Of a stretch of 49,638 nt of DNA, positions 1,961 to 38,682 are shown one piece after another. The notes under the pieces are model-generated. The model saw nothing but the letters and a program-made list of their open reading frames with translations. It made no database searches and was not told the DNA's origin. This stretch comes from Amoebophrya sp. A120 (Eukaryota > Protista > Dinoflagellata). The stretch's first letter is position 1, and every line of letters begins with the position of its first letter. The stretch spans positions 754,775 to 804,412 of the forward strand of contig CAJINV010000023.1 in the NCBI GenBank assembly GCA_905178155.1, in the 5' to 3' direction. Position numbers and translations under genes: made by a program.

Positions 1961-2874
1961 GTAGTCGCAGCGAATGTAGTCGTGCGCATTTTTACTTCGC
2001 GCTGAGCTAGACTCTCCTTCATCATGTTCACATCTACTTCAAATAAACATATTAACTCACTCGCCTTAGTGTTTGCCCACCGGCGCAGCCCTGGGAACTG
2101 GTTTTTAAGTATGCTTATTCTCGTTACACGCGGAGGAGCCATAACATATGTAGCAACAAGACTGCTTCTATAATCCAAGCGGGCGTCCTCCCCAATATCC
2201 TGGCACTGCGCGCAGTTGTGAAGAATCTTCTACGATTCTAGTATAATATCTGATGTGTAGTGCGTCGAGTTGGCCTGGTTCTTCCTCGATTCTCTCGCGA
2301 TGTGGTTGGTTGCATCCCGTGCAAGGTCATGCGTTTGCGCCTGCTCGTGTGAAAAAAGGAGGCCCCCACCTCCAGGGGAGGCCGAAGCCATGAACTGCTC
2401 GCTTCTGCTTCTAGGATCGATCTGCGTATTTTTGAAAGAGAAGAGTTATTTACTTCCCTAGCTGGTTTTTTCATGAGTGACGGGAAAAGAAGCAGCGGCC
2501 CTGGTCATTTTTTACCTCTGTAGCTTTTGAAGGCGTGCGCGTGCTAACCACCTCCAGCAAGTCCATTTTTACCAACACACGCAAAAAGATCTGGCACACA
2601 AATGCAAAGATAGAATCTTCGGCCTGCACTACGCGGGACACAATTGTCGTGCCTGCAGTTTAGCAGGTGTGGTGGAATTGTATGTAATCTCGGAACTTCA
2701 ATTCTATCACTAGGACGCTCGGCGCTACGCTGATAAGACCACCTCCTATTCGCAGTATCCCGAGAAAAAGCTGCTCCTCGTGGTGGCGCTGCGCTTGATA
2801 AAACTCGATGGCATGCAAGCAGCATTCGCCTAGGAAGTCTTTGCGCAGCCTCGGTCGAAGCGCGGTATCGTAAA

Positions 2875-5800
2875 ATGTCTGCGCCGCTGGTGGCTTCAGC
2901 GCAAGCGCACGCCGGTTTGGTAAGATGGTCACTGCTGTGGGTTTTGCTCGAGGCCGTCTTCCTTGCCTTGTTTTGGGGTGCGAGATACTTGACGATCAGC
3001 ACAGACAACCTCGCGCACTTAAGGCGGGTGACGAAAATAAACCGTAGTTATGTGACAAATCCACCAGGACCTCCCGCTGCGCCAACACCAACATCAAAAA
3101 GCAAACAGGAGACCGCAACAAAAACAAACGCCGGCGGTGCCGGAATAAATTCCCGCCCCGAGCGGCAGCGCAGAAGCCCTACTGAACTCCGCGGAGCCCA
3201 CGAAACTTTGCGGCAGCGTCTATTACCGTCCTTGGACGCGTGCTCCCTTTCTATCGTGAGAAAAAATCCCCCCTCCCCATATCGAAAACGAAATCTGTGA
3301 TGCTGTATTTGAGCCTCAAGTCGACTTGTAATGCTAGAAGGCCAAGAGACGCAGCTGTGGCCTCGTTTGCAGGCAATTTGTCACGCTGTTTCCCACTTCC
3401 AGCTGCCCCCTGTCATGCTGAAGATGCAAGGCTTTCCCACGCCAACCAGCGCTACAGTCCGCATCTTTTCCCTTCTAGCATGACACAGCTGATTTGTGAC
3501 CGCAAATCTGCGTCACAAATTTCTAGTTTAAGTATGGGGTGGGGGGATTTTTCCTTTTGATACTTTCCGTCGGATTTTCGAAGAAGACAAACGAGGGGAA
3601 CAAGACATCATCTTCGAAGCTGATCTCCCCCGATGTGGTTTCTGGAAAATTGCCGACGACGCATGCGTTCTGGCGGTCGCGAGCGGACTGCACTGCCCTG
3701 CAGTTCTGCCACGATCAGCGTCCCTCTCCACCCGAGTGTGACCTGTGTGTGGTCATTGGGCAATTTGTGGAGAAGGATCGCCTCTATTCGCAACGAATAT
3801 GCCGTGGCCGGTTTACGGGGGGGTCGTCCGCTATGGGGGTGTCAGGATCGTCGAAATCGACAAAGTAGAAATAATCTGTCATGCACAAAATGCGACACAG
3901 AGGGTGCCTCTATTGCAGGGGATGGAAAGGAGGCTGATTTTAGTCCTGCTAAGGGTCAAGAGTTGGGCTGCTGACTAGCACGACAGCAGGGAGCTCCTTT
4001 ACTTACCCTAAACAGCATGACAGATGACTCGCTTCCGGCGCGGGGAAAATTTGCCATGCGCCGACTATAAGCCCTGGGTCCAACTGGAGGTATCGCTTTT
4101 ATGCATTACAAGTTTTTCGTTTTTGTCGATTTCGCTTCTGACGCTTCCATATCCGCGTGGCAGGATCCGGTTCATTTGGGCGACTTCTCGGACCAGGCAG
4201 TGCCCGCACGGTATTGTGAGGAAAAATCCCCCATCCCCATACCAAAGCGGGATACTTCTGAAAATTTGTGATGCTGATTTGAGACCACAAATCGTTTCTG
4301 TATTGCAAGCAGGCAAATCCAAAAACCTGGCCGCGTTCTGCAGGTAATTTGTCATGCTGTATGGCCTACGGAGGAAATGCCTGCCTTGCTAGGCGCCTAC
4401 ACCAAAACGCACCTAGTCCCGCTTTGTACTTACTTGCCTGCACTCCTCTCCTGCAAGACAAAGCCGACTCGTGTACAGAAGTCCCGCATCACAGATTTCC
4501 ATTTCGACATGGGGAGGAAGGATTTTTCCTTTTGGTACACGGATCACCTTCAACATGAGCGGGTGGCTGGATTTCCGGGTGAATCCTCTGAACTGGGGCC
4601 ATTTCCTTCGCGGCAACTTGGGATTCGGCAACGCACTCCTGAAAGGAATCGACGCCCTTCCGTGCGTATCAAATGCAAATATCGATCTGCGTCTGGAAGA
4701 TTGCAAGGTTTGTCATGCATATTTCGCATGAGCTATGATGCCTGTAATGCATGACCGAGCATCACAAATTTTTTGCGGGTATCTAGATGTCTATTCCGCA
4801 TGACAAATTCCCGCTCCGGAGCAAAAACTGGACGCCTCGTCTTGCTGCTCATGCAATACAGATTTTTTTAGATTTCAAAAATAGCATCACAAGTTGCATT
4901 CTTCCAGACCCAGACACTTTTGCAATCCATAGTGCGAGGTTCGTGGTCCCGAGGTGGCCTACAACAACTGGTGGACTATGTTGGCGAAGCGCAACATATC
5001 CTGTGCAAAAACGTCCCCACCCCATAGTCAAATTGGTAAATCTGCAACACAAATCTCCAAGTTTTGGAAGTTTTGCAGGACAAATTTTCATCTGTAGTGT
5101 AGGGCTGTTTAGCAAGTGCAGCTGCATGAGAAAGCCAGCTTCTCATCCTGTTTCCAGCATTGCAAAGTCCAAAACACGATTGAAAAGGCCTCTCATGCGC
5201 ATTACAAATGTTCCTGTCATTGCACATTTGCACGACAACTATGGGGTGGGGACGTTTTTACTCGGGATACAACAACACAAAGTGTGACCAGGCTAAAAAG
5301 GACAATCGCCTGGCCTCGATCGAAGTAGGCGTGGATCCGGAACTTTCAAAATTGTTTCCGGACAACGCGACGAACAAAGTTTTTTCTTTTCCAAATGAGG
5401 CGCGCGTCCAATATCAGAATGAAAAATCCCCCCTCCCCATACTCAAACTAGAAATTTGTGATGCAGATTTGTGGTCACAAATCAGCTTTGTCATGCTAGA
5501 AAGGGAAAGATGCGGACTGTAGTGCTGGTTGGCGTGGGAATAAGCCTGTGCGTCTTCAGCATAACAGGTAGCAACTCGAGGCGCGAAACAGCATGACAAA
5601 TTGCCTGCAAACGAGGCCACAGCTGCGTCTCTTGGCCTTCTAGCATTACAAGTCGACTTGTGTACTCAAATACAGCATAACAAATTTCGTTTTCGATATG
5701 GTGAGGGGGGATTTTTCCTTTTGATATCCAAGCACAGCTTGCTACGGGGATGACGTGGTCGAGAACCATCCGACTTGGCGGCGCGCCGTTCAATATGGAT

Positions 5801-8800
5801 TGCAAAAATGTCTGGGTCTGGAAGAATGCCAGACTTGTCATGCAGGTTTCCCATGACCCATGAGGTGTGTGGTATGTAGGACATAGCATGACAGATTCTA
5901 CTGTGAGAGTTCTATCACGCCTATCCTGCATGAGAAACTGCCTCTCGATTAGGTCCAAAGTGGACAGCTTTTGGTAATCATGCAACACAGATTTTTCCAT
6001 GATTTTTCAGATTTAGCATGACAAGGTGCTTCTTTCCAGACCCAGACACTTTTGCATTTGATATTCAAGTACGACGACCAACCTGACTACATCACGTTCA
6101 TTCGGAGAAAAGGGCACCGGCAAATTGAGGGCTGGAAGATTATCGCAGATCTTGCGAAAACCTTTGCCGCTTCCCTCGGTATGGAGTACAAAGAGGTATT
6201 CATGGAAGAGAAAACACCAGACGAGCACGCCGCAATCTCACGCGGCTCCTGCGTGGTGCTGATGGGCATGGGGGCGGGTCAGTACACCCTCGAGATGATG
6301 CAGCCAGGCACATTATCCTGTGTAAAAACGTACCCACACCAGAGTCAGGATGGGGATTTTGCAACACAAACCTAGGAGTTTTGTGAGTCACGCATGACAA
6401 GTTGCAGGCTGTATTGTAGTGCAGTTTAGCAAGGGAAGCCGCATAACAAATCCACCTCCTCATCCTGTCCACAGCATCACAAATTCCAAAACACGATTGG
6501 AAATGGCTCTCATGGGGATGCGCATTACAAATCTTCCTGTAACTGCAAATCTGCATTACAACTCTGGTGTGGGTACGTTTTTACTCAGGATACACATTCA
6601 TGGTCTCCATAGATCCCGTGGATTTTCCCTGGAACCAGTACACAAGGTCCTACGCGTATCAAAAGAAAAAAGTTCGTCACGATCACTCATGGGCATTTTT
6701 GCAATACAAAAAATGCGTGTCATGCGGAAACATGCACTACAGCCGAACTTCATACGGGATTTCCTTTAGTGTTTCTGCAATACAGGCAAAAGCTGTGATG
6801 CTAAAAAAATTTGTAATGCAGAGCCTCCAAGTTAGTGAGTGTGACAAACTTTTTTCTCTCCATAACGCGATGTCCAGGGGGCTCACGTATATTGAGTCCG
6901 TGGGTTACAGCAAATACAAAGAACTGCATCTGTACGGCTTCCCCAATCCGGGCAACATTAGAAATTTGGGCCGGGACCCTGTCAAGCGTGAGATCGAGAA
7001 CATTTTCACAGCCATTCGACACGAGCTGCCAGGTTCTCCTTGTCGAACGAAAACAAAAACGACGAGACGCACATCTTCAACCACCGGAGGAATGAGCCGA
7101 GAGCTAAAGACCGGCTCAGCGTCAGCAGCAGTCGCTGCACACGACCCCGGGCGCCCGCTCTGGGCCCGAAACCACGGCAAATCACTAGAGCGCGCACGCA
7201 GCACCGACACAAAAGACTGCGTCGCGGCGCACTTGGGCAAATGGCGCGTGAATAAGACAGCCACGCCTTCGGACGCGCACCTAAACTGCATCGGACGCCT
7301 TTTCGGCTACGACGATCGCATTCACCCGATCGAGTGCGATCTTTGCCGTGGTATCGCGAGGAATCATTTCCAGGCCGACAAGCTCTACCACTTGCGGTAC
7401 TGCAGTGCGTGGTATTCGGAAGCAACCCAGGCAGCGTGGAGAGAGTTAGCTACTGGCGTCGGGTTCAACAAAACGGCCGGGGCCGCGAGGGCGCTACTGG
7501 AAAATAAGCCACAGGTTGTTGTGGACCGGCCCATATGGATTGTAAAAATGTCTGGGTCTGGAAGGATGTAACCTGTGATGCGCATTTCAGAACACACAAA
7601 AATCTCTCATGCATGGGTAGCAAAAGCTGCCCACTTTCTGTCACCAAAATGAGGGATTTGTCATGCGGGTTCGGCATTGCGGAAGCTTCTCGAAACCTGT
7701 GATGCTAGAGCTTCCATGCCAGACCTCCCGTGTCATGCAGAAACAGCATGACTCTTCCAGACCCAGACATTTTTACATTTGATAGCCCACGCAGGTAGAA
7801 ATTTTTGGGACTATGAAGCGTGAAGACATGGAGCCGGGCGATTTTGTTGGGGGACCACTTGTATCCAGTGCAAATATAATGTGTGGGTCTGGAAGGCTAC
7901 AACTTGTCATGCAGATTTTACATGGCCCGCGACGTCTGTGATGTATTCGCTAGAAGCGTCACAGATGTTCTGAGTGCTCTTTGATGCCGATCCCGCATGA
8001 GAACAAATGTCCTGCTCACATAACAAAAACTAGATTTCTCCTGCTGCTCAGGCAATCCAGATATTTTTGGAAAAATCCAAGAGCAGCATGACAAGTTCCA
8101 CCTTTCCAGACCCAGACACCACGACATGTTTGCATTTGATAACTTGGGTATGTAGCCGCGGTGCTGTACTCGGGACGGGTCTTCAGTCCGTGCGCAATGA
8201 TCGTCAAGGGCAGCGCGGCAAAGTTCGAAACTTGGCTCCGCATGGTGTTTTTGCGGGACCCGGGTCGTGGCGACACTGCGAAAGCCACGCCCTGTCCGGC
8301 GGGCGCTGCAACGCTGAAAATAGACTTGACAAACTGGGACTCCGCAGAAATGGCGATGGCATACGAAGCCAGGAGGTGGGCGCGCAACGGCCATGCTGTT
8401 GGTGCACAAGTGTAGTGCAGGGAAAATTATTCTCCATCTCGTCATACAACTACTCAAAAGCACAACATTCCGAGTGCGCGATCTGTTAATCATAATCACA
8501 CGACAAATGTCGACTTGCATTGCTAAAAAATCAACAAGATACGTCAGCACACCTGCGGCCTCATTTATTGCAGGCTATGTCTCATGCTATACTTCGCGGC
8601 TGTGTAGAAGTTGCTGCTTCTCATACTGAAGACGCGAAGGTTCTTTATCACGCCAACCAGCCAGCACTACGATTCGCATTTTTATTTCCTTCGTAGCATG
8701 ACAACTTTGCGTCCTCGATGATCACAAACCATGCTACATAAATTTCATGCGAAACATGGCGAGGTCGAGTTGTTTTTGATTTTGATAAAATGCTTCCTTA

Positions 8801-10319
8801 TCTGATTAGCATTCCTGCACCGGAGGGACCCCGCCGCGAGCTGGCGGCAAGTGAGCACGAAGGCAGGACAGGTGATGACCGACGGCAGGCAAAGGCAACA
8901 CTGCCTAAAACGCTGGTGTTTGTGCACGCGGACGGATCCTATTCGGGTAAACAAAAAGGTGCGCAGGCAGCTGCTACAGCACTGAATAGTACTGCGCTGC
9001 CGCGCTTAGCGAAAAAGCTGGGACTCTCGTACAAGGTCCTAGATCTTGGCAGCGCGCAGAAGTCTTCGAAGCTTGCGAGCGCAGCGACACTGGCCGGCTC
9101 GCTTGCTTCCGCGTGCGTTATCGTTGGGGAAATAAATCCCCCCTGCCAATACGCAAGAGAGGACTTGTGATGCTTCATTTGTGGTGTCTACAATATAGGT
9201 TTGCTTGCTGTGTGGGACTACAGGCACGGGTCGTGTCCTGTTGTAGGAACTTAGTGTGGCCGATCGATCCTCTGCTCTGCAGGCCCAGCAGCATTTTTTC
9301 GAAGCGCTTGCTTGATGCGGCGGAGTCTGTGGAGTTGCCATCTTCTTGCAAGACGGAGTAGAACTACATCTGTTGCCACAAATGGGCATCGCTCTCAGTA
9401 TGGGGACAGGGGTGGATCTTCCCTTACGATATGCGTTCTCGTTTCCCTAGTGGGTCCCGGGCAGGGGTTATTTTCGATTGCCAAGCCCGGCACGTTCGCA
9501 GTTTCCATCAGCCCAACGGACTGGGTCTACAACGAATGGGCCCGCTCCCGAGCATATGCATTGCAAACATGTCTGGGTCTCCTGGGCTTGTGATGCGAGA
9601 ATTATCGGATGCCGCGACCAAAAATATCCGTACTGCATGAAGAACCCTAAACCCTAAACCCTAGACTGGCTTGCTTTTTTGCCGTGCAAATAGAGAGCAA
9701 TTTTGCAAGCGATGTACGACAGAATCTGTAAGGAAATTGTTCCTAAAGCTTGGCATCCCGTCGTGCCGACGTTTCAAAAGGAGCCGCTGCGTCTTTCCAG
9801 GACGTCGACTCAGCAACACGAATTCGCTGCATCTTTCCGGACCCAGACATGTTTTCAGTGGATAGAGCAATCGCGCGCGGCTTGCATTATCTCGAGCTTT
9901 CCGAGTCCATCTTCTACTCCGCAGTGACGAAAGAGGAGCAGCTACCATTTGTGAAAACGTGCCCACACTATAGCCAAGTCTGGAACTTTTACTCCGCAAG
10001 ACAAATCCAGAACTTTTGGGAGTCGTCGCGCATGATAAGTTTCGACTTCAGTGTGGTCATGCCTAGCTTTAGACCAGCTGCAGAACAAACTCAGCCTCTG
10101 CCAGCGACTAGTTCGCGAGATGAAATTTCCAAACAGGACTAGAAAACGGTGAGAAATAATTTTACGACTTTGCAAATACGCATGACAAGAAATATGGGGT
10201 GGGTAAGTTTTTAGACAGAATAGGAGATTTGGGGACGGGACCGCGAGATAAATGCAGGGGAAATCGCCGCTCTGGAAAGCTTTCTGCTCGCTGAGATGCC
10301 TCATTCAGAGGCCTGCTAA
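2875..10319 (+). CDS. Type II membrane protein with two tandem GT61-like glycosyltransferase domains; 16 exons, 15 non-canonical introns
   Basis: TM WSLLWVLLEAVFLALFW; reconstructed NWGHFLRGNL, FIRRKGHRQI, VVLMGMGAGQYTLEMMQPGTFMVSIDP, YAMSRGLTY; second repeat ECDLC...VSLVGPGQGLFSIAKPGTFAVSISP...AIARGLHY; stop TAA 10317-10319. Confidence 0.8.
3252..3562. mobile_element. TIR introner, family A
   Basis: TATC..AAAAATCCCCCCTCCCCATA termini; perfect 5-mer CTTTC; 316 nt restores frame. Confidence 0.95.
3832..4151. mobile_element. TIR introner, family D
   Basis: TATGG..GTCAG..CGAAATCGACAAA TIR; perfect TCCGC; 325 nt restores frame. Confidence 0.9.
4212..4537. mobile_element. TIR introner, family A
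   Basis: Perfect CACGG; 331 nt restores frame. Confidence 0.93.
4667..4931. mobile_element. TIR introner, family B
   Basis: TATCAAATGCAAA..TCTGGAAG / CTTCCAGACCCAGAC termini; perfect GTGCG; 270 nt. Confidence 0.93.
4997..5269. mobile_element. TIR introner, family C
   Basis: TATCCTG..AAAAACGTCCCCACCCCATAG TIR; perfect CAACA; 278 nt. Confidence 0.95.
5412..5726. mobile_element. TIR introner, family A, opposite orientation to 3252-3562
   Basis: Perfect TCCAA; 320 nt; interior is the reverse complement of 3252-3562. Confidence 0.95.
5794..6063. mobile_element. TIR introner, family B, opposite orientation to 4667-4931
   Basis: Perfect TTCAA; 275 nt. Confidence 0.95.
6314..6592. mobile_element. 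TIR introner, family C
   Basis: Perfect CACAT; 284 nt. Confidence 0.95.
6657..6864. mobile_element. TIR introner, stop-free in frame
   Basis: Perfect ACGCG; 213 nt; ORF 6567..7571 reads through it. Confidence 0.88.
7534..7784. mobile_element. TIR introner, family B
   Basis: Perfect GCCCA; 256 nt. Confidence 0.93.
7862..8141. mobile_element. TIR introner, family B
   Basis: Perfect ACTTG; 285 nt. Confidence 0.93.
8413..8787. mobile_element. Degenerate TIR introner, family A-like
   Basis: AAGTG/AAATG; 380 nt joins ORF 8161 to ORF 8790. Confidence 0.8.
9119..9431. mobile_element. TIR introner, family A-like
   Basis: Perfect TGCGT; 318 nt. Confidence 0.9.
9555..9864. mobile_element. TIR introner, family B, containing a telomeric tract
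   Basis: Perfect GAGCA; 315 nt. Confidence 0.9.
9645..9663 (-). repeat. Interstitial telomere-type repeat (TTTAGGG, ~2.7 units)
   Basis: CCCTAAACCCTAAACCCTA on + strand. Confidence 0.7.
9943..10222. mobile_element. TIR introner, family C (decayed)
   Basis: GCAGC/GGAGA; 285 nt gives last exon WGRDREINAGEI...EAC*. Confidence 0.82.
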
Positions 10320-11104
10320 GTCCTCTGCTCCTTCGTCATTGATGATTCTTGCGTAGCGAATGATCTTCGGCGTCGCTAGCCAGAAATGCAGGTTTTCGGA
10401 GCACGACGCCAATCGAGGTTGAACGCTAGATGGACACCTACCGGGACGCCGCCGGGAAACCTTCACCATCCACGACCGTGCGCGCACAAAGTAAGCAGTC
10501 CTTGCTGGGTTTATGTGTTACGGCGCAGTTTGGCGCTCAAGCGTTTCATGGTGACCATCACCATCAACTGTTTGCTTATTGTCCAAGCGCAGCACCTTGC
10601 TAGGCGCAAGAAAGTATCTTAAGAGAGAGTCTATCTATAGATAGCGGAGGATTCTGCAGCGCACTATTTGGTTGGTAGAATAACGAATCAAGGCGCTCCG
10701 AGAGGCGCGGAGTTGCTATGCTGTCTAAGGTTTGGCAGTCGCGGACGCATTTTCTGTATCATCTTAAGTCTGTTTTTCTCTGCTTGAAGTTGTGCGGTAA
10801 GGAAAGAATTTCAACAAGCGAAGGAGCGTCGAAGGGCAACGCTTCTACTTTCAAGGTCATGTTGCTGGGACCTCGATGGAAATGCAAAAATATTGCGCAG
10901 GGAACGAAAATATTTACGTGAGAAGTCGAATAATCTCCGCGGGGACGGGTGTGAGAAAAGGTCTGAACTTTGCGCGGACGCCTGGCTGAATCATTTGCGT
11001 TCTTGTTGGTGTCTTCAATCTTGACTTCGCTTCATCTCTACTGGGCGAGGCTTACTAGTATTGCTAGCGTGGCAAAATGATTTGGCTACCTACGCCTGGA
11101 CTCG

Positions 11105-11388
11105 TGCGTAGAATCAACACAAATTACATGAACTGCAAAAAAGTTGCAAGAGGAACCTATGGTTCTTGTCGTCTCTCTCTATGTAAGAGCAAGCACATTT
11201 AGTATCATGATCCCGCCATCGAAAACGACGCTGATTTTTGCAGCACAAAAGGTATCATGGTAGCCACAACACCACCCCGCTTCTTCAACATAGCCGCAGT
11301 ACTTCCGCTGCTTGCGCGGCATCTTTGGTCGTCCTTCTGCCTCCGGAGGTGGTTCTGGCGACCAAGTTTGCAAGCCAACGCCGCTTGT
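11105..11388 (+). pseudogene. Frameshifted copy of the upstream region and 5' CDS of the GT2 gene (~27505-27780)
   Basis: Shared CTCTCTATGTAAGAGCAAG, CATCGAAAACGACGCT, ATGGTAGCC, CATCTTTGGTCGTCCTTCTGCCTCCGGAGG; 2-nt deletion shortly after ATG 11257. Confidence 0.8.
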
Positions 11389-11511
11389 TCGACAAGTGTG
11401 TAACTGTAACGCTTTTTTCTTGGGATAGAAGCGGAGCATATTATTTCTCGGTGGCGGCATTTGATGTTGAGTGCGACAACCTCGTCGTTTAGTCAGCAGC
11501 AGCAGGATCAT

Positions 11512-14500
11512 ATGTTGGAAAAACATGATCCTCGGGCGACGTCGTCCAGGGAGGGCATTCACGGAACAAGCATGTCGAGACGACGGCTCGGCCTCGGTAC
11601 CGCCGCGTGTTTGGTCCTTCTCTTACTGCAGATCGTGCTTACGCGGATTCTGCTTGCTGCGGTGCAGGTAACAGATGGTGGAGGAGCAGTCGTGTGTGTC
11701 AAGACACAGCATCATTCGGGGACAGGTGCACGACCACAGGGAGTAGAACCAGCAGGAACATCTTCCCCATTGGCGCCTGTCCCCGGGGACAGGGAAAAGA
11801 ATCAAAGCACTAATAAAGGAGAATCTTTACAAAAAATGCCGAAGAACGGAGTAGTCCTCTCCTGCGGGAATGGTGCGCCAACCCTGGAAGCCGGACCGGG
11901 GGGGCGATTCTCATCAGAGGAGCTGGACAAGTTTGACTTGGAAGACCCTCGAGTGAGTCGGCTTCAACTAGTCGACGCCGTGAAGCGGTTCCGAAAACGC
12001 GTGAAGCAGCTTTATTCCAATAAAAAATCCACGACCCTCCCCACGCTCAAACGGAGATTTGTGTACCATGATTTGTGATCACAAGTCACCGATTGATTGT
12101 CATATGCTACAAGGGAAGTACAAGTAGAGACGCGAACTGTACTAGTAACGCTGGCTGGCGTGGGCGGTACTAAGCCTTGCGTCCTCACCAGCATGAACAG
12201 AAGCAACTGGAACGACGGGAAACAGCATGACAAGATGCCTGCAAACGGGGCCGCAGCTGTGTGGTCTGTTAGCCCTCTAGCAATATTACAAGGCAATCCT
12301 CCTACGCAAGTCCAGCATCACGAATTTCCTTTTCGATATGGGGAGGGAGAATTTCTCCTCGCAATAAGCCCGACGAGATGAACGCACAGCTGACTGCGCA
12401 GGTCTTGCAAGCAACAGAAACGCAGCAAATAACAGGCGGCGCTGCCTCGTCCAGCACCTCGTATCAACTGCAAATATGATCCCTGGACGATGTCTGGAAG
12501 GATGCAAGGTTTGTCATGCGAGGCTACCACAGCTTCCAACTCTGTAATGCGCGTTAAGTTATATCCCAAAAGCCACATTTCTCTGCAATACAGCGACGCA
12601 GTTTGTGATGCAAAGACAGCACAACAATACTTACAGTAACTGAAAAACAACTTGTCATGCTTGGCTGTCAATGGAGGCGCCCGCATGATTTTTCGCCAAG
12701 CAGCATCATAAGTTTCCAGACATCCAGGGATAATTGAAGTGGATAAGTCGGCGGGAGGTACGACTTCTACCAGTACTAGCGCGGGCTCTATCGAGAGGAA
12801 AAAATCTGCCCTCCCCATATCGAAGCAGAAGTTTATTGTAGTGCTGTATGATCTATTGCGTACACAAAGAAAGCGACTTGTATTGCCAGGAGGCCAAGAC
12901 TACACGCGGTTGCGGCTTTGTCTGCAGACATATGTTCTCGCGCAGTTTCCCGTCGTTCCAGATGCTGCGTGTCAACATGCTGAAGACGCAAGGCTTGATG
13001 TTACCAACGCCAGACGCAGTCCGTTGTTACAACGCACGGCGTTGTGGTGTCGCAGCGCCAAGCCCAAGGCCGGGGGGCAAAGTTGCCACAAAATCGATTT
13101 TGTGCCCCCCGCAGCGCGAGCGGCAGCGCCAGGTCTAAGGCCGCGGGGCAAAATTGCCGGGAAATCGATTCTATGCCCCTCTTGGCAAGGGCGGCGCCGC
13201 AGCCCCGCAGCGCCAGGCCGGAAGGCGCCGGGGGGAATTGCCGGAGAGCCGACCGACTGCTCGGTCGCCTTCTGAGCAAAGGCGGCGTAGCGGTGTCGCA
13301 CAGCCGGCCCCTAGGCCGCGCGGCAAAATTGCCAGGAAATCGATTTTGTATGTCTTTTAGCAAGAGCGGCGCTGCGGAACCGCAACGCCGCTCGCGCTAG
13401 TAGGCATACAAAATCGATTTTCGGGCAATTTTGCCGCGCGACCTTGACGAAACGAGGCCGGCGCGCCGGGAATTTTGCCCCGCTGCCCCAGGGCTGGGAT
13501 TGCTGGCGCTGTCACGCTGCAGCATCCCGCTTGTCAAGAGGGGCACAGGTTCGGTTTTCCGGCAATCTTGCCTCGCGCCTGCCTGGCGCTGCGACACTGT
13601 GGCGCGGCTGTTGCTAAGAGCGGCACATAATCGATTTCCCGGCAGTTTTATTCTGCCCCGCGGACTTAGGCCTGGCACTGCGGCTAAGGCGGGAACAGAT
13701 TCGGTCTTCCGGCACTTTTATTCTGCCCCGCGGCCTTAGACCTGGCGCTGCCTGCAACGAAGACGGGCACAGAGTCGATCTCCCGGCGATTTTGCTTTGT
13801 GGCCTTGTGCCTGTTGCTGCGCCACCGCAAGGCAGTAGTTGCACTGCCCCGCGGCCTCAGGCCTGGCGCTGCGAGTAAGAAGGGCACAGAGGCGATTTTC
13901 CGGCAATTTTGACTCGCGGCCTTGGCTTGGCGCAGCGACGCTAAAAGCCAGCTCTCTCTAAGATGCGCACAGACAAAACCGCCCCGCCGGCTGATTTTGC
14001 TTGCTTGTCGAAGTTGGGTCGCTGGTCGAATCATCATGGCGATTCTATCGCCAAAACCTCGCACACTTCCACAAGAATTCGGCGCATATTATGTAGGTAT
14101 TTGGACACCCAAAGGCGTGGCATTTGGGTACTCAAATACAGTAGCAGACTTCGAGCGAAGTGATGATGCAGGGGTTGTATAACTGAGTAACAACATGCTG
14201 AAGACGCAAGGCTTGTTGTTCCCAACGCCAGTCGGCACTACGGTCCGCATGATCTCTACTTCCCTTCTTGTAGCTGCATGACCACGTAAATATTTAAAAT
14301 TTGTGATCACAAATCACAAGACACATCAAATCTCCGTTTGAGTACTATGCTGGGGACAACGAGGGCGGATTTTTCATTGGAATAGGCTCAAACTCTTCAA
14401 AAACGTTACTGCTCGGCGGGAAAAAGGGCGGAGGTGGCCTGGCGAAGCAGAAAGGCGCGGCTCCATGCGGCGGCAATAAAACAGATCAGTTTCTAAGACC

Positions 14501-17500
14501 GTCTGCGATTCCGGACAAATCAGTAGCACCATGCGCAACGGCGTGGGAAAGAGTGGCGCCGTCACGGGACGCCGGCTTTGAAAATGGCACGAGGTACGCG
14601 GGCCCTTGCGACGTCGCAGCGGTGGACGGCAACATCACGAAAAAGTATGATGTGTGGCGGTGCCCAGAAACCGCGACGCGTGGGCACTTTTTCGTCCGAA
14701 ACCTGCGGTGTCAGGAAGGAAACGTGACTTTTTCCAATGATGCCGCCTACGTGCAGCGTGTCAAGAAGCTGGTTGGGTCCGACGAGTTCGAGTTCTACCT
14801 GTTGGGACCGGAGCTTCACGCACTAACGGATATCCTGAGTAAAAATGTCCCCACACCAGATTCAAGATGGGAAATCCGGTAGACAAATCAGCCACCTCTG
14901 GTTGTTTCGCATGACAAGTTTATCTCCGTAGTGTAATCCTGTTTAGCTAGTTGCGAAGCATTACAGATGTAGCACATCGTGCTGATTCTAGCATTGCAAA
15001 CTCCAAAACAGGACCAGAAAATGGCTCTCTTGGGGCTCCGCATGAGAAACCTTTTTGGCATGCAGGTTTGCATGACAAATCTGGGGTGGGGACATTTTTG
15101 CTCAGGATAACGGACCCCTCGGGTTTTCGAGTCCTCGGGGACTGCCAGTACCAGCTGCTGTACAACGTGACGACGCCGGGACGCTACCGCGCCGAACTGT
15201 GGATGCAGCGGGAGCGGTGGAGGGGAATCAGCGAAGCGGAGCCGAGAAAGTGGATAGCAGGGAACAACGACGACGTTCTAGGCTCGCAGGTGTTCATAGA
15301 CTTGGGAACAAGTGGAGCCGCCGCGGAGGGGGGCGCAAGCACAACCAGTACAACTGGAGCTGCTGACGTCCTCGCTGCCGGAACCGCTCAACAGCAACTT
15401 CCTCGGTGCGACTTGAAGAAAAATCCGGGTGACTTCGGGTTTGGCCGTATCCTGTGGAAATAAAACGGGGCCCACGACACCCCAGAGTTGTCATGCAGAT
15501 TTCTGATAATTCCAGGATAGAGCGCATAACCGTCCCCATCGTCTACTTCAGTAGAGGCATTATTATTTCAAATCGTGTACGAACTTTTGACATTTGTAAT
15601 GCTGAAAACAGGATGAGGAGCTGCAGGTGACATTTGTAATGCGTCCACGGCTGTGGTCCTTGCTAGAAGTACTAACCTGCTGAACTACAGTACAGAGAGA
15701 AATTTGTCATGCCTGCGCCCAAAACCTCTGGATCTGTGTTGCAGCATCGTGCCCATCTTGATTCTGGGGTGTGGGCGGCCCCTGATCTTTGCTCAGGATA
15801 GGCCGCTGGGTTTTTCGCGGCAACGGCACCGCGGGAGACGCGAAGCTGGCTATCCCACAGAAAAAAGCAGGTAGGGCATTTTCATATATGCAAAAATAGG
15901 TACGCAGAAAAATCTGCCATGGGCAACCCCATAGCATGCTGTTTAGGACATGCAGTGCAGATTTTTTTGTGGATTCATTTTTGCATTACAAATCTGACCT
16001 GCCTGCATTTTTCTGTGCGAAGCTGGCCGCGTACCGCCCAGAAATGGTGGCCCGCGAGAATTTATCCATTGCAAATATGTCTGGGTCTGGTAGAGTGCAC
16101 GAGGACAAATAAATGCTTATTTGCCTAGTAAGAAATGGGCCGCTTTTGGCGCGGATGCATCCAAAAATTTTTCCTATTCCAGAATCTGCATCACAAGTTG
16201 CAAAACCCTTCCAAACCCAGATCGTCGATATTTGCACTGCATAGAATTTGGGAACCTTCAAGGATCACTACGTGTGGGAGCCGCGCAACTGCCACCTGCC
16301 GTACTTGCCTGGGGACCGCGCCGCGCATATCCTGGGTAAAAACGTCCCCACACCTGAGTCAAGATGGGAAATCTACAACACAGGCCCCCAAGTTTTGAGA
16401 GTCCTGCATGAGAAGTTCTCATCTGCAGTGTAGTGCTGGTTAGCAAGCAAAGGCGCATGAAATGAAAGCCATTTTCTCATCGTGTTTACAGCATTACAAA
16501 TGCAAAAACACGAGTGCAAATGCCTCTCTTGGAAATGCGCATTACAAATGTTCCTGTCATTGCGCATTTGCATGACAACTCTGGGGTGGGGACGTTTTTA
16601 CACAGGATAGCGCAGTGCCTGCAGGGCAAGGGCATCCTGGTGGTGGGAGACTCACACGCGCGCACGCTCTACAACGCCCTCGTCAGCCACGTTTGCGGGC
16701 CCAAGGGGCCTCTAGGTGGGTGGCACTCGAATTCGTGCCTCGAAGGCAATGGCCTCCCGGACCGTTGCAAAAACATCAAGCTGTGCGTGCAGCACGACGT
16801 GTTCAACACCCAGCTGGCACAGACGCCCGAGAAGTCCAATCTTCAGAACTTTTATCGGAAGGAAAAGTCCCCCCTCCCCATATTGCAAAGGTATGTTTCC
16901 GAAAATTTGCGTTGCTGATTTGAGGTCACAAATCACATTTGTCTTGCAAGAAGACAAGGGCAGAAGCTTTCGCCCCATTATGGAAGCGATTCGCCATGCT
17001 GTTGGACCTAAAGAGACGCCGTTTGCCATGCTGAACAACTAGACCCAGACGCCCCTACCTAGCCTGGGGATCTGGCCGCAATGCCTCTCTGCAATACACA
17101 GCTGATTCGTGTACACAAATCCAGCGTCAGAAATTCCGTCTTGATATGGGGAGGGGGGATTTTTCATTTTGATAACTTTGACCTGGTCATTGCCGGGATG
17201 GGCCAGCACTCCTCTGCGGGTAACTCCCGCTGGAAAATTACCCCAGAGAAAAAGCCTGGCAGGGCATTGCTATCTACTATGTTCATGCGAAAAAAGAGGT
17301 CTACAGAGGCAGAGGTGGCGGGGAGGTCAAAAAGAGGTCGACAGAGATGGAGAGAATATATAGCAATGCCCTCGGCAGCTTTTTTCTGTGTGATAAAAAC
17401 AGCGAAGTACGTGGAGACAGTTTCGGCTCTATCAAAAGGAAAAATCCCCCGTCCCCATATCGAAAAGGAAATCTGTGATGCTGGATTTGCGTTGTACACA

Positions 17501-18072
17501 TATCACATCTGTCTTGCAATAGAGGACTGCAGGCATACGCCAACCCTGGGCAGCGAGGTTTTCACATAGGCGCCTAGCATTTTTACAAATGTCCACACTG
17601 TAGACCCACCAGCATCTTCACAAACCGCCTGCATAATGCGGCGTAGCCTGCTGTGGGGTTGCCTTCTTGCAACACAGGGACGATTTGTGCCCACAAATCA
17701 GCAGCGCAGATTTCCCGCGGCTTCCTTTTCGATATGGGGAGGGGGGTTTTTTGCTTGCGATAGGCCCGGGGTGCGGGTTTTGCGGCGGCGGTGAAAAAGT
17801 TCGGCAAGCCGATTTACTGGCACGATTTGAACGACTTTCCGTTTCGCAACGACGGGTTCGTCCGCGGCTTCCAGGATCGCCGTGGCCACTCTTTCATGCG
17901 GCTCTGGAACACGTACGCCGCCGAGGAAATGGACAAAAGACATATTCCGGTTCTACCCGCGTTTCCTAGCAGCCAAGCCTGGCAGCGCCAGACCGATGCC
18001 CACATGCCACTGCCAGTTCTTCAGGCGAGCGTGGCACAGTTTATCTGGAACGTCCTTGGCTGTAGTACGTAG
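11512..18072 (+). CDS. PC-esterase/NXPE-TBL-like (SGNH-fold) O-acyltransferase/esterase, type II membrane protein; 11 non-canonical introns (alternative ATGs 11464, 11572)
   Basis: TM LGTAACLVLLLLQIVL; GSDEFEFYLLGP; YQLLYNVTTPGRY; YVWEPRNCHLP; CLQGKGILVVGDSHAR (GDS); C-terminal TDAH; stop 18072. Confidence 0.85.
12013..12366. mobile_element. TIR introner, family A (decayed)
   Basis: AGCTT/AGCCC; 359 nt gives open exon DEMNAQL. Confidence 0.82.
12462..12745. mobile_element. TIR introner, family B-like
   Basis: CCTCG/AGTCG; 289 nt. Confidence 0.85.
12789..14384. mobile_element. Family A introner expanded to 1.6 kb by a nested insertion
   Basis: Perfect GGCTC; 1601 nt joins ORF 12739 to the frame of ORF 14553. 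Confidence 0.88.
13040..13960. repeat. GC-rich foldback array of degenerate units (GGCAAAATTGCC-GGAAATCGATT), inverted near 13400
   Basis: 13316-13357 is the near reverse complement of 13402-13440; units repeat on both arms. Confidence 0.8.
14831..15109. mobile_element. TIR introner, family C
   Basis: Perfect ACGGA; 284 nt. Confidence 0.95.
15448..15800. mobile_element. TIR introner, family C, reverse orientation
   Basis: Perfect GGCCG; 358 nt gives GRWVFRG. Confidence 0.9.
15851..16022. mobile_element. Short TIR introner
   Basis: CTGGC repeat (extends to GCGAAGCTGGC); CACAGAAAAA.GCAGG TIR; 177 nt. Confidence 0.82.
16063..16243. mobile_element. TIR introner, family B (short)
   Basis: Perfect GAATT; 186 nt. 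Confidence 0.9.
16328..16609. mobile_element. TIR introner, family C
   Basis: Perfect GCGCA; 287 nt. Confidence 0.95.
16853..17174. mobile_element. TIR introner, family A
   Basis: Perfect ACTTT; 327 nt. Confidence 0.93.
17239..17395. mobile_element. Short TIR introner, stop-free in frame
   Basis: AGGGCATTGCTAT/ATAGCAATGCCCT inverted repeat; AAAAT/AAAAC; 162 nt. Confidence 0.8.
17430..17762. mobile_element. TIR introner, family A
   Basis: GGCTC/GGCCC; 338 nt joins to ORF 17791. Confidence 0.9.
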
Positions 18073-18862
18073 TTGGAGCTATCCTCCATTCAAAAGCTCC
18101 ACCCCAGAGCGGCCGTATAACCTGCAAATATCGATCTGGGTCTGGAAGGTTGGAACTTGTATGTAATGCTGGTTTTTTTACCTTGTTCCTGTGAATAAAT
18201 CTGTGGGCATCGACCTGCACGGGCTCCATGTGTGCCGGAAGTAGCAGTGCAGCTACTGTGTGAGATGAGTTTTTTCTGCTCTCCCCGATAGAGAAAAGTG
18301 AAATGAAGGAAAAGCAGCCAGCGGAAGGATCATGACAAGCATGACGAGCAACCTTTTTGCCGCCCCCTTTTTTAGAAGTGCAACTTACAACTCCCTTGCG
18401 AGCATTAACACAAATAGCGCTCTCCGACCAAGAATGTAAAGTAGTGCAGTTGCACCAGCGTGCATAAACTTAGCCAATCAGATTACGCGGAGATCAGATG
18501 TTCTAAAATGAAACTAAACTATGCTGGTGCGGCGCGCTGAAGCGCGCCCCTAGTAAACTTCCTCATAATTTTGACTTCAAGTCCGTGGTTGAGGTCAGTT
18601 ACGTCTTCAAGCCTACTTGCGTAGTACTATGTCATACGCGGACGCAGCAGTTCCTGCGCCCTCGTGCAGAAGTGGGGTAGTAAAGTACCCCACGACCTCG
18701 CCCTCGGGGCAACTTTATTATTCTGTACCGAGGGACACAAATAAAAGTACATATAGAAGTATGGTCGACGCAGAAGGGGGAAGGACCACTACACAAGCGA
18801 CGGCTTTCGTGACGTGGCACAAGGACAGAGTGTTTCTTTCGTCTTGATAGCCTCGCCATTCC

Positions 18863-21733
18863 ATGCTCTGCGTGCTGGGCCTGGACCGTCTCGCGCGGTC
18901 GCTGGTGATCGCGTATTTTCTTTTTTTCTTCTTTTGCCTCGTGCGACACCGGCGCTCAGCTGCCCTCGGGCTGGAGGTGGGAGTAGCGCGCAGCAGTCCG
19001 CTAAAGGGCACACTGCCAACATCATCACACCTCGCGCGACCCCGAAAAAGGCTATTACAATGAAAAACGCCCCCTCCCCATATCAAAATGGAAATCTGTG
19101 ATGCAGATTTGTGGTCACAAATCAGTTTGTGATGTTAGAAGGCAAAAGATGCGGACTGTAGTGCTGTCTAGCGTGGGAAAGCCTTGCAGCTCCAGGATGA
19201 CAGGAGGCAACTGGAAGTGGGAAACGGCATGACAGATTACCTGCAATTTAGGCCGCAGCTTCGTCTCTTGGCCTTCTAGCAATACAAGTTGATTTGTGTA
19301 CTCAAACACAGCATCACAAATTCGCGCATCTTCCGTTTCCGATATGGGGTGGGGGCTTTTTTCACTTTGATAAAGGCCCGAGCCCGTTCACTTTGCGGAG
19401 GACCACTCTAATCTGGATCTGCACTTTATCAAAAGGAACAATCCCCCCTCCCCATATCGAAAAGGAAATCTGTGATGCTGGATTTGTGTACACAAATCGG
19501 ATTTGTCTTGGGGTGAAGGACTGCAGGCAGATATAAAGTCTGAGCAGGGTGCTTTCGTGTAGGCACCTAGCAAGGCAGGCGTGTCCTATGTAGGCCCTAC
19601 AGCATTACGAATTGCCTGCAAAATGCGGCGGAGTATAATCTGGATTTGCCTTCTTGCAATACAGAGACGATTTGCGCTCACTAATCAACATCACAAACTT
19701 TCAGAAGTGCCTCTTTTTGGTATGGGGAGGGGGAATTTTTCCTCTTAATACCCTTTCCAAGAACGCTATCCAAGTAGAGAAAATCAGCTGTCGATTAGTG
19801 TAGTAGTTGTCTTCGAGGAGAGGCATGACAATAAACTTCTTCCGAAACAAGACAGAGAAAGTTTGTCATGCGCAGCTGCTTAGGAGGTGTCTTCGAGGGA
19901 AGGCATGACAATAAAGTTCCTCCGCAACTTAGTTGTTGTACTATCGGTCTATATGAAAACAGCGATGAGAAGTTGACAATTCGTGGCTTTCTGGTACGAC
20001 AAGTGCTTATTGTTTGACATAGAAGTTCTGCTGCACATATTATATAACTTAAACTTTACACTCAGAATAGCTGCACAGAAGAAGTTTTTTTCTTGCATAA
20101 ACGCTCGGAAAGCTTCCGAAGCAGAGGTACACGGCGACCGCGAGGGCCGGCAACGATGAGGTTCTGCGGCTACTGCGCAGCGACAAGGTTTTCGTCGCGG
20201 CACGCCTTTCCTATAAAGGGGCAGAGGCGCAGGTTGCGCAGGCGATGATTCTCGGGAATACGAAAAGCGCCGGAACGCAGCTCCTGAAGGACGCCACCAT
20301 TATATTCAGAGGAAAAATGATCCCCCCTGCCCATTTTGAGAAGGTATGTTTTCGCAAATGTGTGCTGCTGAGTTGTAACCACAAATCAAGTTTGTCTTGC
20401 AAGAAGACAACTGCACAGGCCTCCGTGCCATAATGGAAGCGATTTGGCATCCTGTTGAGCCTAGAGGGCAGTCGTTTGCAGCGTCAATGCTAACCAATTA
20501 GACCCAGACGCCCCTACCTAGGCTACAGATCTGGCCGCAGTGCCTTACTGCAAGAAAATTATAGAGCGTATTTGTATAAGTACGCAAATTCAGCATCAGA
20601 AACGTCATTTTGATATGGGGAGGGGGGATTCATTTTCCTTTTTATACATCAATGCGGGAATCTATCCCATGACACAAGACGGGGTCGCCGCCTACGCCAA
20701 GGAGCTGTCGCGCTCCCTGGCCGAGCTTACTGAGGACGATCTCATCGCAGCGTTCGATTATTCAACCCGACCAAATGGAGAGATAGCGTCTCTCGAATCC
20801 AAGCTCTCCCGGGCCAAGGTTTACCCGAACCGTTTTTTGGAACCCTGGTATTTCCCCGAGAATCCGTGGTCAAGCGTACCAAATGAAAAAGAGATGTCCC
20901 GTCCCAACCCCAGAAGTTTCAAAAACGATATGTGTTGCATAAGATTTTCAAATGCGAATCTTTTTACCTATGCGTGCTTGGATTGGAACGCTGTCTCTCA
21001 TGCAGAGTGTAGGCACGCGAAGAAGTTCCTAGCTGACAGCCCAGCCTTGTAATGGGCCTTTTTGCAACTGAAATTTTTGCTATTCTTGTTCGAAAATAAC
21101 GCGTGACGCTGATACAAGAAAGGCGGCAGATGTTTCCATTGGGAACTTTTGCAACACAAACACCTTCATATTCTGGGGCGGCGGTAACATTTTTCACTTT
21201 GATAAAGCGCACTCGCCGGAAAAACCGTTCTGGTCATCGCTGCGATGGTAGAAAGTTTTCGATGCCAAATGCGTGAAGACCGCCGCCCAACCATTTGGAG
21301 CCACGTCAACAGCTCCATACTTCCCGAGTTTTCCATAAAATACGTGCCCTCGGTGCAATCCTGTTGCGGCCTCAGGCCCCACGCAAGCTGGACAGAGTCG
21401 CTCAAAGTGATGCAGAAGGCCATCGACGCTGTTGGCCACTTCGACGTGGCTCTGGTCGCGGCCGGGGCCTACGGCTTCCCCCTGGCCGCCTACTGCCGGC
21501 GCAAGCACAATCGGAGCGCCATAGTGATAGGAGGCGGGCTCCAGTTGCTTTTCGGAGTGAAGGGAAACCGTTGGGAAAAGCATCCCATAATTCGCCCGCT
21601 GTTCGGGTCGCAGTGGATTTACCCTCTGCTGTCTGAGGTCCCGAAGCAGGCTAATCTGGTAGAGGGCGCATGCTATTGGGGGCCCAAGGCTTTGAGCCTG
21701 GAGTACTGCCCCGCGACCCGGGGAAAGAAATAG
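18863..21733 (+). CDS. GT-D-fold-like putative glycosyltransferase of bacterial polysaccharide-locus type, with N-terminal anchor; 5 non-canonical introns (start uncertain)
   Basis: TM LVIAYFLFFFFCLV; NAGIYP; LEPWYFPENPWSSALAGKTVLVI; FDVALVAAGAYGFPLAAY; IVIGGGLQLLFGVKGNRWE; VEGACYW. Confidence 0.8.
19053..19372. mobile_element. TIR introner, family A (close relative of 28463-28783)
   Basis: Perfect AAGGC; 325 nt. Confidence 0.95.
19427..19750. mobile_element. TIR introner, family A, opposite orientation to 4212-4537
   Basis: CACTT/CCCTT; 329 nt. Confidence 0.9.
19767..20099. mobile_element. TIR introner with internal direct duplication
   Basis: Perfect AACGC; 338 nt; internal repeat TGTCTTCGAGG..AGGCATGACAATAAA. 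Confidence 0.85.
20303..20646. mobile_element. TIR introner, family A
   Basis: CATTA/CATCA; 349 nt joins ORF 20245 to ORF 20540. Confidence 0.88.
20877..21204. mobile_element. TIR introner
   Basis: Perfect AAGCG; 333 nt. Confidence 0.9.
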
Positions 21734-36219: not shown

Positions 36220-36326
36220 GACTTTTGATTTATCATTATTTGCGTGGTGCTATGCGAATGCGCTTGCATCTTTTCCACTGTTCCGGCGAGTAGCCGCGTT
36301 GTGTATGAATATCTCTCTCACCTCCC

Positions 36327-38574: not shown

Positions 38575-38682
38575 TATCGTATTGGCGTGTTTTTGTATTG
38601 GATACGCTAGAAACCATCCAGAAATACCTGCCGGTCGACCCCGACAGCATGCCGAGAAAGATCGTTATCGCCAATTACGGTA
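38575..38682. mobile_element. Miniature TIR element
   Basis: TATCGTATTGGCG/CGCCAATTACGGTA; TGCAA/TGTAA. Confidence 0.6.

What the first reader, a model, noticed from the sequence alone, without database searches (positions are those of the whole stretch)
3252..19750. Same element families interrupt sense-strand exons in both orientations
Seen: 3252-3562 vs 5412-5726 (family A), 4667-4931 vs 5794-6063 (B), 4212-4537 vs 19427-19750 (A) and 14831-15109 vs 15448-15800 (C) are oppositely oriented, yet all sit in + strand genes and obey the same excision rule. Established: spliceosomal signals (donor, branch point, acceptor) are polar. Inference: all information needed for removal is symmetric, i.e. 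the TIR stem, so an insertion is tolerated in either orientation.
Basis: partly seen in the sequence, partly recalled or inferred. Interest (0 to 1): 0.85.

Follow-up and report, generated by a model that had tools for sequence, protein, structure and literature searches.

The report
Two-way transposon introns in Amoebophrya
In the parasitic dinoflagellate Amoebophrya, already-described transposon-like introns sit in genes facing either way and, with five duplicated bases, are missing in both directions from likely-RNA contigs and annotated proteins, likely because their mirror-image ends show the same signal either way while the cell likely cuts at one fixed off-centre spot.

Summary
The window matches Amoebophrya sp. 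A120 (three exons 100% identical to proteins so named). The repeats are the introner elements of Farhat et al. 2021: ends TAT-N7-AAA…TTT-N7-ATA, with a 5-bp target duplication.

Pair B (4667/5794) has its interior in the same orientation, but family B has opposite members elsewhere (7534). Family A splits 9:8.

Likely-RNA contigs lack all 15 elements of gene 1, averaging element+5 nt in every block. Protein records show the same removal for 26 of 27 elements in four more genes.

The two ends are statistically indistinguishable, so the signal is symmetric. The cut is not: diverged duplications place it 1 nt before TAT and 4 nt after ATA (4 of 4 contig junctions, 8 of 9 annotated junctions; 12462 disagrees). 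Introns read N-U-A…N-N, and 0 of 41 are GT-AG. That the stem alone suffices is not shown.

Two-way introners are known in Polarella and Aureococcus. I did not find orientation independence or a pinned cut stated for A120, although its paper hints at the cut.

The parts
3252..3562 (+). Family A element, reference orientation; perfect 5-bp target duplication; intron in gene 1
   Evidence: removed within block 3246-6865 of contigs X1 and X4
5412..5726 (-). Family A element, opposite to 3252 (89.5% as reverse complement); intron in gene 1
   Evidence: removed within block 3246-6865
4212..4537 (+). Family A element (second subfamily), ends GTA; intron in gene 1
19427..19750 (-). Family A element opposite to 4212; intron in gene 3; duplication differs at base 2
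   Evidence: removed in annotated protein P0004, cut 2-5 compatible; no RNA junction seen
4667..4931 (+). Family B element; interior in the SAME orientation as 5794
   Evidence: removed
5794..6063 (+). Family B element; same orientation as 4667, outer ~10 bases swapped
   Evidence: removed
7534..7784 (-). Family B element opposite to 4667, 5794 and 7862: the valid family B example
   Evidence: interior scores -20/72, -17/71; removed in block 7528-8791
14831..15109 (+). Family C element, same orientation as 4997, 6314, 16328; intron in gene 2
   Evidence: removed in P0002
15448..15800 (-). Family C element, opposite orientation; intron in gene 2
   Evidence: removed in P0002 and its paralog P0003; present in DNA-like contig X5 record 17
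8413..8787 (+). Family A element with imperfect duplication; contig end fits a cut after base 3, 4 or 5; weak predicted end-pairing
9943..10222 (+). Family C-like element with imperfect duplication; contig end fits a cut after base 2, 3 or 4
12013..12366 (-). Family A element; contig end fits only a cut after duplication base 4
   Evidence: annotation fits 4 or 5
17430..17762 (-). Family A element; contig end fits a cut after base 4 or 5
12462..12745 (.). Family B-type element, orientation unassigned; the exception: annotated protein fits only a cut before the upstream duplication copy
   Evidence: same residue in paralog P0003
12789..14384 (+). Family A element swollen to 1596 bp by an inner insertion; removed all the same
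   Evidence: depth 0 in X1 and X4 at 13412-14045 vs 46.6 in X5
24049..24382 (.). Element ending ATG; a cut before duplication base 4 would create a stop codon
24773..25104 (.). Element ending ATG inside the DUF268 domain; annotation fits cut 4 or 5
25976..26290 (+). Family C element; annotation fits cut 1-4
2737..10316 (+). Host gene 1: 1043-aa open frame after 15 removals; weak glycosyltransferase 61 match
   Evidence: contig lengths 3837 and 3771 reproduced exactly
11410..18069 (+). Host gene 2: 764-aa frame after 11 removals; weak SGNH/NXPE match; annotated protein P0002
   Evidence: 745 of 746 residues
18851..21730 (+). Host gene 3: 402-aa frame after 5 removals; weak GT-D-like match; annotated protein P0004
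   Evidence: 398 of 398
22463..26549 (+). Host gene 4: DUF268 protein; profile positions 5-76, 78-104 and 108-133 run on across exons
27597..30315 (+). Host gene 5: glycosyltransferase 2; holds opposite family A elements 28090-28401 and 28463-28783; annotated protein P0001
   Evidence: 674 of 674

Best explanation
These are Amoebophrya A120-type introner elements, likely non-autonomous DNA transposons, that sit in + strand exons in either orientation between 5-base duplications and are absent, with one duplication's worth of sequence, from likely-RNA contigs and annotated proteins, likely because each end carries the same motif (TAT-N7-AAA and its mirror image) from which a direction-aware enzyme, most likely a modified spliceosome, would measure a fixed cut 1 base before TAT and 4 bases after ATA. 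The 1+4 offset equals the 5-bp duplication, so the pre-insertion reading frame comes back whatever the element's length, target sequence or orientation. The intron then reads N-U-A-U…A-U-A-N-N-N-N: the element's first T and A stand where +2 U and +3 A of a normal donor stand, while +1 and the last two bases are free. End-to-end pairing likely helps bring the ends together. Shown: orientations, symmetry of the ends, removal length. Inferred: exact cut (12 of 13 informative readings at 12 sites fit), role of motif vs stem, identity of the enzyme.
For: Removal = element + 5.0 nt in all five contig blocks covering 15 elements of both orientations. Spliced lengths 3837 and 3771 equal the contig lengths. 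26 of 27 elements in genes 2-5 are removed as element+5 in protein records. Cut position: the four informative contig ends allow {3,4,5}, {2,3,4}, {4}, {4,5}; 8 of 9 informative annotated junctions allow 4, and 4 is their only common value. At 24049 an earlier cut gives a stop. Of 41 removed elements, +2 is T in 40 and +3 is A in 41; +1, -2 and -1 take all four bases; 40 different target sequences. Ends symmetric. 9 of 9 predominant A120 non-canonical splice pairs in Table S4 of PMC7789003 begin N-T. That paper found most spliceosomal proteins and the U2, U4, U5 and U6 snRNAs in A120, but no U1. 51 of 54 elements fold with at least 10 of the first 30 bases paired to the far end.
Against: 12462: the annotated protein and its paralog fit only cut 0, and PMC7789003 calls the splice position variable relative to the hairpin. 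26356 (113 bp) is read through in P0124. The cut is pinned exactly at one contig end only (12013), whose far side was not displayed. No reference-orientation family A element bounds the cut from above, so identical geometry in both orientations is compatible with the data but not proven. X1 and X4 are one sample and only guessed to be RNA, and the protein records may rest on the same transcripts. The N-T bias in Table S4 could partly reflect aligner preference. TAT and AAA lie one helical turn apart and may be conserved as a transposase site rather than as a splice signal (inference). The ending TTTGATA is commoner at the 3' end than its mirror at the 5' end (16 vs 8 of 55, p 0.10), a possible polar preference. 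Nothing here touches the enzyme.
Confidence: 0.6

Rival explanations
1. Same symmetric signal and fixed staggered cut, but made by a non-spliceosomal endonuclease and ligase that reads the end-paired RNA, as proposed for Euglena nonconventional introns.
For: No conserved base at intron +1, -2 or -1 and 0 of 41 GT-AG; no sense-strand branch-point excess; U1 not found in A120. Euglena's tested code is also a paired triplet with unequal spacers, 3 nt at the 5' side and 5-6 nt at the 3' side (PMC12501133 abstract and section 8).
Against: +2 U and +3 A match spliceosomal donor positions (established knowledge). A120 keeps most of the U2-type spliceosome. Fritillaria's transposon-derived non-canonical introns need the U2 spliceosome.
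Confidence: 0.25
2. One reading: the paired stem alone carries all the information, and any hairpin of this shape would be cut out.
For: 51 of 54 elements are predicted to pair end to end. At positions 16-35 an element's own two ends match better than shuffled partners in families A (p 0.002, n=17) and C (p 0.0002, n=9).
Against: No such excess in family B (p 0.25) nor at positions 4-10 in any family (p 0.71-0.87), and subfamily structure alone can produce it. G-U vs A-C 55:37 (p 0.076) and 126:118. TAT and AAA are near-invariant rather than co-varying. 8413, 12013 and 19767 have 0, 8 and 4 of 30 bases paired in the best fold, yet are removed.
Confidence: 0.1
3. The elements are cut out of the DNA (like ciliate internal eliminated sequences) and X1/X4 are DNA of an excised genome form.
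For: X1 and X4 are only guessed to be RNA. Symmetric ends and orientation independence suit a DNA reaction. X5's joint table was swamped by repeats, so a minor excised DNA form is not excluded.
Against: X5 contigs have even depth (38.5-45.7) and run through whole elements (records 14, 16, 17). X1 contigs vary 18.6-64.8 and stop between genes. PMC7789003 validated these introns by RNA-seq.
Confidence: 0.03
4. The joins are reverse-transcriptase template-switch artefacts at hairpins flanked by direct repeats.
For: A hairpin plus a short direct repeat is the known setting for such artefacts (recalled, no call).
Against: All 15 removals occur on one contig and build a 1043-aa frame. The DUF268 profile runs on without gaps across three removals. 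Unspliced gene 1 has no frame over 342 aa.
Confidence: 0.02

Closest known systems
Introner elements (IEs) among the non-canonical introns of Amoebophrya A120 (Farhat et al. 2021, PMC7789003; abstract, sections 10-12 and 16, supplement legends and Tables S4/S7 passages read; figures not seen)
   Same: Same organism label on the matching proteins. IR motif TAT + 7 variable bases + AAA, direct repeats of 3-5 nt, hairpin, no canonical ends, about 240 nt mean length.
   Different: The text I read does not mention element orientation relative to the host gene (term searches). It reports no clear splice signature and a variable cut. [quoted passage not shown]
Two-way introner-like elements of Polarella glacialis and Aureococcus anophagefferens (bioRxiv 10.1101/2020.10.14.339549, passages read; the Aureococcus paper itself not read)
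   Same: TIR/TSD transposons that create introns in either orientation.
   Different: There, ordinary or near-ordinary splice sites (GT/GC/GA…AG) come from the element or the target, so the target is constrained and one orientation is favoured. Here 40 different targets in 41 sites, no AG, and family A splits 9:8.
Euglena nonconventional introns, code 5'-N3CDG…CH'GN5-6|R (PMC12501133; abstract, sections 8 and 12 read)
   Same: No GT-AG; a paired triplet at fixed, unequal distances from the two cuts, the 3' spacer longer by 2-3 nt; MITE origin proposed.
   Different: Different motif and spacers (here N1-TAT…ATA-N4). No purine rule after the cut here. Tested by knock-in there, untested here. Unrelated lineage.
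Non-canonical MITE-derived introns of Fritillaria borealis (seen only through PMC11282704 section 6 and bioRxiv 10.1101/2025.08.15.670264 passages)
   Same: Transposon ends supply non-canonical splice sites on a genome scale.
   Different: Preferred AG-AC/AG-AT ends and shown dependence on the U2 spliceosome; here both terminal dinucleotides are nearly free.

Membership tests
Amoebophrya A120 introner elements | Occurs in A120 | tested here: met
   three exons 100% identical to proteins named Amoebophrya sp. A120
Amoebophrya A120 introner elements | Inverted repeat starting TAT, seven variable bases, then three or more A | tested here: met
   of 41 removed elements, 36 start TAT, 37 end ATA, 33 have AAA and 35 TTT at positions 11-13
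Amoebophrya A120 introner elements | 3-5 nt direct repeat at the exon/intron boundaries | tested here: met
   5-bp repeat, 83% match vs 20-29% at other offsets, n=55
Amoebophrya A120 introner elements | Removed from RNA with non-canonical ends | tested here: met
Amoebophrya A120 introner elements | Repeated in families | tested here: met
   families A, B, C in the window; element sequences draw contig depth in the thousands in X5
MITE (non-autonomous TIR transposon) | TIRs, fixed-length target duplication, short and repeated | tested here: met
   113-375 bp except 12789. Coding capacity of the elements was not searched.
MITE (non-autonomous TIR transposon) | Cognate transposase that mobilises it | not tested
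   no whole genome held; PMC7789003 reports none in A120; PMC12130899 assigns some A120 introners to TIR transposons
MITE (non-autonomous TIR transposon) | Empty and filled sites | tested here: inconclusive
   a paralog pair in the window differs by element 1127-1365 plus 5 nt; gain or loss cannot be told
Canonical U2 spliceosomal intron | GT/GC…AG ends | tested here: not met
   0 of 55 under the rule; at most 4 of 55 at any one cut position within the duplication
Canonical U2 spliceosomal intron | Polar branch point and pyrimidine tract | tested here: not met
   simple motif and pyrimidine counts are equal on both strands; a hidden branch site inside the symmetric end is not excluded
Canonical U2 spliceosomal intron | Lariat, dependence on snRNAs | not testable with these tools
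   needs lariat sequencing or snRNA blocking
Euglena-type nonconventional intron | N3-CDG…CHG-N5-6|R signature | tested here: not met
   +2..+4 read TAT and the motif ends 4 nt before the cut; it works like one but is not a member

The most novel reading that the evidence does not exclude
Amoebophrya A120 has a second splicing code written wholly in its transposons' palindromic ends, N-TAT-N7-AAA…TTT-N7-ATA-N4, read as a ruler by a U1-free or non-spliceosomal machine whose 1+4 offset equals the transposon's own 5-bp duplication. Any insertion, at any target and in either direction, is then born a perfect intron, convergently with Euglena's code.
Probability: 0.4. Interest if true: 0.75.

Novelty: already known. 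Interest (0 to 1): 0.45.

Why it matters
The elements are published, but how they are spliced without GT-AG or U1 is an open question. If the reading here holds, it turns 'no clear splicing signature' into a precise, testable code: mirror-image ends, and a fixed cut 1 nt before and 4 nt after them. It would explain why tens of thousands of insertions were tolerated, since neither target sequence nor direction matters. It would also fix intron boundaries in A120 gene models and allow a direct comparison with the Euglena code.

Tried and rejected
Whole genome: none held, so no genome-wide tally.

Raw-read RNA run X9 laid only 3 reads, all partial: no use for efficiency or strand. X2, X3, X6-X8, X10 and X11 were not examined (4 of 11 listed runs laid). 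No listed holder is on record as RNA. In one search all 15 displayed joints came from repeat noise in X5 (560 more hidden), so junctions were read from piece coordinates instead.

A first scan assuming a TA duplication gave mixed frames and was dropped.

The end of element 15851 was first set one base wrong and corrected; the 126:118 count and the duplex-energy test (sense better in 35 of 55, p 0.14) come and include that error.

A polar branch point or pyrimidine tract was looked for and not found. 18 of 48 elements were unassigned to an orientation; five family B-type elements (9555, 12462, 16063, 35074, 35746) stay unassigned or weak. Genes beyond 30400 were not modelled fully, so the + host strand for 32259, 34331, 35415, 39725 and 42608 is likely but not protein-checked.

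Earlier findings: none for this genome or for element 3252.

Literature searches found no statement of orientation independence or of the 1/4 cut for A120. Figures of PMC7789003 and the supplements of PMC12130899, PMC9860276 and the Polarella preprint were not seen and may hold it.


Full report
WHAT IS THERE. The window is a run of + strand genes broken by short repeated elements. I catalogued 55. Each begins TAT, has seven variable bases, then AAA, and ends in the mirror image, with a few variants. Each is flanked by a 5-bp direct repeat: 83% of flank positions match, against 20-29% at shifted offsets, and 30 of 55 are perfect. The catalogue was built with this motif, so it is biased outside genes 1-5. 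Inside gene 1 it is complete, because it accounts for the contig lengths exactly; in genes 2, 3 and 5 it accounts for the annotated proteins. Single exons are 100% identical to proteins named Amoebophrya sp. A120. The end motif is the one Farhat et al. give for A120 introner elements (PMC7789003 section 11).

ORIENTATION. 3252/5412 is 89.5% identical as reverse complement vs 69% forward, and 4212/19427 is 80% vs 60%. 14831/15448 is weak directly but clear through 4997, 6314 and 16328. The fourth, 4667/5794, is not opposite: its interior aligns forward (205 vs 89; 117 vs -15) and only the outer ~10 bases are swapped. Family B still goes both ways (4667, 5794, 7862 vs 7534, 32259, 34331, 39725). 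Tallies are A 9:8, with 0 of 51 pairwise calls inconsistent and 12789 added; B 3:4; C 7:2, one of the seven being the paralogous copy 30577. None differs from 1:1. A fourth pair, 3832/25192, also scores opposite (28 vs 100).

REMOVAL. In one search, contigs of runs X1 and X4 (one sample, guessed to be RNA) span gene 1. Their coordinates give removed lengths of 2612, 1839, 921 and 918 nt, which equal the summed element lengths plus exactly 5.0 nt per element in all five blocks. Simulated splicing gives 3837 and 3771 nt, the two contig lengths, and a 1043-aa + strand frame. These 15 elements include both orientations of families A (3252, 4212, 8413 vs 5412, 9119) and B (4667, 5794, 7862 vs 7534). 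Block sums could hide offsets that cancel, but shifting any one of the 15 ends by one base shortens the frame, only slightly near its end. Run X5, with even depth, holds whole elements in place (records 14, 16, 17). For genes 2-5, the same rule reproduces P0002 (745 of 746), P0004 (398 of 398), P0001 (674 of 674) and P0124 up to element 26356: 26 of 27 elements are removed and 26356 is read through. This covers 14831, 15448 and 19427, whose junctions I did not see in RNA data. The protein records may rest on the same transcripts as X1 and X4. Independent of them, the DUF268 profile runs 5-76, 78-104, 108-133 across consecutive exons. Contigs cannot measure efficiency, so partial retention of one orientation is untested.

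WHERE THE CUT FALLS. Where the two 5-bp copies differ, the joined sequence shows which copy each base came from. I took the tool's pieces to be left-aligned at joints, as four perfect sites show. Four contig ends are informative: 8413 allows a cut after base 3-5, 9943 after 2-4, 12013 after 4 only, and 17430 after 4-5. At 12013 and 17430 the contigs match this locus where the paralog's DNA contigs differ (table 3), but the far side of each joint was not displayed. Nine annotated junctions are informative. Eight allow 4, and 4 is their only common value (12013, 17239, 19427, 23299, 24049, 24773, 25534, 25976). One, 12462, fits only a cut before the upstream copy, with the same residue in the paralog. 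At 24049 a cut before base 4 makes a stop. An empty/filled paralog pair at about 240-420 and 1025-1450 also keeps upstream bases 1, 2 and 4. So the usual intron is N-TAT…ATA-NNNN. Among 41 removed elements, +2 is T in 40, +3 is A in 41, and +1, -2 and -1 take all four bases; none is GT-AG; 40 targets are distinct (12462 counted under the rule). Table S4 of PMC7789003 lists nine predominant A120 non-canonical pairs, all starting N-T, although the text reports no clear signature and a variable cut. The same geometry in both orientations fits the data but is not pinned: the upper bound comes from reverse family A and forward family C, and forward family A gives only 'after 3 or later'.

WHAT IS SYMMETRIC. 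The two ends do not differ at any of 16 positions (smallest p 0.15). Branch-like motifs and pyrimidine content are equal on both strands. The one polar hint is TTTGATA at 16 3' ends vs its mirror at 8 5' ends (p 0.10). Positions 1-3 and 11-13 are complementary in 50-54 of 55 elements, positions 4-10 in only 26-39. For a stem: 51 of 54 elements fold end to end, and own-end matching at 16-35 beats shuffled partners in families A and C, not B, with subfamily structure as a confounder. Against stem-only: no clear G-U excess on the transcribed strand (55:37, p 0.076; 126:118, which includes one mis-set end), and 8413, 12013 and 19767 pair poorly in the best fold yet are removed.

MECHANISM. Inferred: a transposase inserts the element either way with a 5-bp staggered cut. 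On the pre-mRNA both orientations show the same ends, which likely pair and are read as motif plus stem. A polar enzyme cuts 1 nt upstream and 4 nt downstream, removing element+5 and restoring the target. I favour a U1-free U2/U5/U6 spliceosome (0.6): the element's U and A fall at donor +2 and +3 (established knowledge of donor sites), A120 keeps most spliceosome parts, and Fritillaria offers a precedent. A Euglena-like non-spliceosomal route is the main rival (0.25); its tested code also has unequal spacers around a paired triplet. Stem-only (0.1), DNA excision (0.03) and an artefact (0.02) are weaker.

WHAT IS KNOWN. The elements, their repeats, the hairpin and the missing U1 are in PMC7789003 (sections and supplement passages read, figures not seen). 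Intron creation in either orientation is reported for Polarella and Aureococcus introners, but with ordinary-type splice sites and an orientation bias (passages). PMC9860276 allowed for opposite-orientation insertions in its method (passage); PMC12130899 required the same orientation (passage). PMC11453091 (passages) repeats the 2021 description. In seven searches I found no statement of orientation independence or of a fixed 1/4 cut for A120. [quoted passage not shown]

VERDICT. A known system with a real, apparently unstated property. Novelty: already known. Interest 0.45, because the sharpened rule makes the open splicing question testable.

Noticed in passing
window about 240-900 vs 1020-1930: Tandem duplicate of an FkbM-like methyltransferase gene part (weak Pfam match); the first copy lacks element 1127-1365 plus 5 nt, an empty/filled pair.
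   Followed up: partly
window 12789-14384: Family A element holding a ~1.2-kb GC-rich repetitive insertion flanked by a 52-bp direct repeat (about 12965-13017 and 14183-14235); still removed as one intron.
   Followed up: partly
element ends, positions 4-10: These bases vary far more than the interiors even between 90%-identical copies, and appear swapped between ends (4667 vs 5794; 3252 vs 5412 both end TTTTGATA). Unexplained; may reflect the transposition step or a weak 3' preference.
   Followed up: partly
window 9790-10560 vs 30420-31160, and 10560-10788 vs 32504-32732: Duplicated pieces of the end of gene 1, including a paralogous element (9943 vs 30577) with a small insertion beside it; likely a gene fragment.
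   Followed up: no
window 26356-26468: 113-bp element with perfect inverted ends related to those of 23299; read through as coding in protein record P0124. Either unspliced or missed by annotation.
   Followed up: partly
window 19755-19765 and 25524-25532: Micro-exons of 11 and 9 nt between adjacent elements, kept in the protein records.
   Followed up: yes
window 47821-49638: Tandem array with a period of about 141-148 bp containing TTTAGGG-like words; possibly subtelomeric (the telomere motif is recalled).
   Followed up: no
window 9646-9665: Three CCCTAAA-like units inside element 9555.
   Followed up: no
window 2737-30315: Cluster of co-oriented glycan-modifying genes (glycosyltransferase 61, SGNH, GT-D-like, DUF268, glycosyltransferase 2; several matches below Pfam cut-offs). 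The named relatives of gene 3 are bacterial (43-44%), a possible horizontal transfer. Gene 2 has a 94% paralog.
   Followed up: no
window 36168-36547 and 38680-39450: Stretches that look by eye like ordinary GT…AG introns, in the same genes as introners; none occur in genes 1-5.
   Followed up: no
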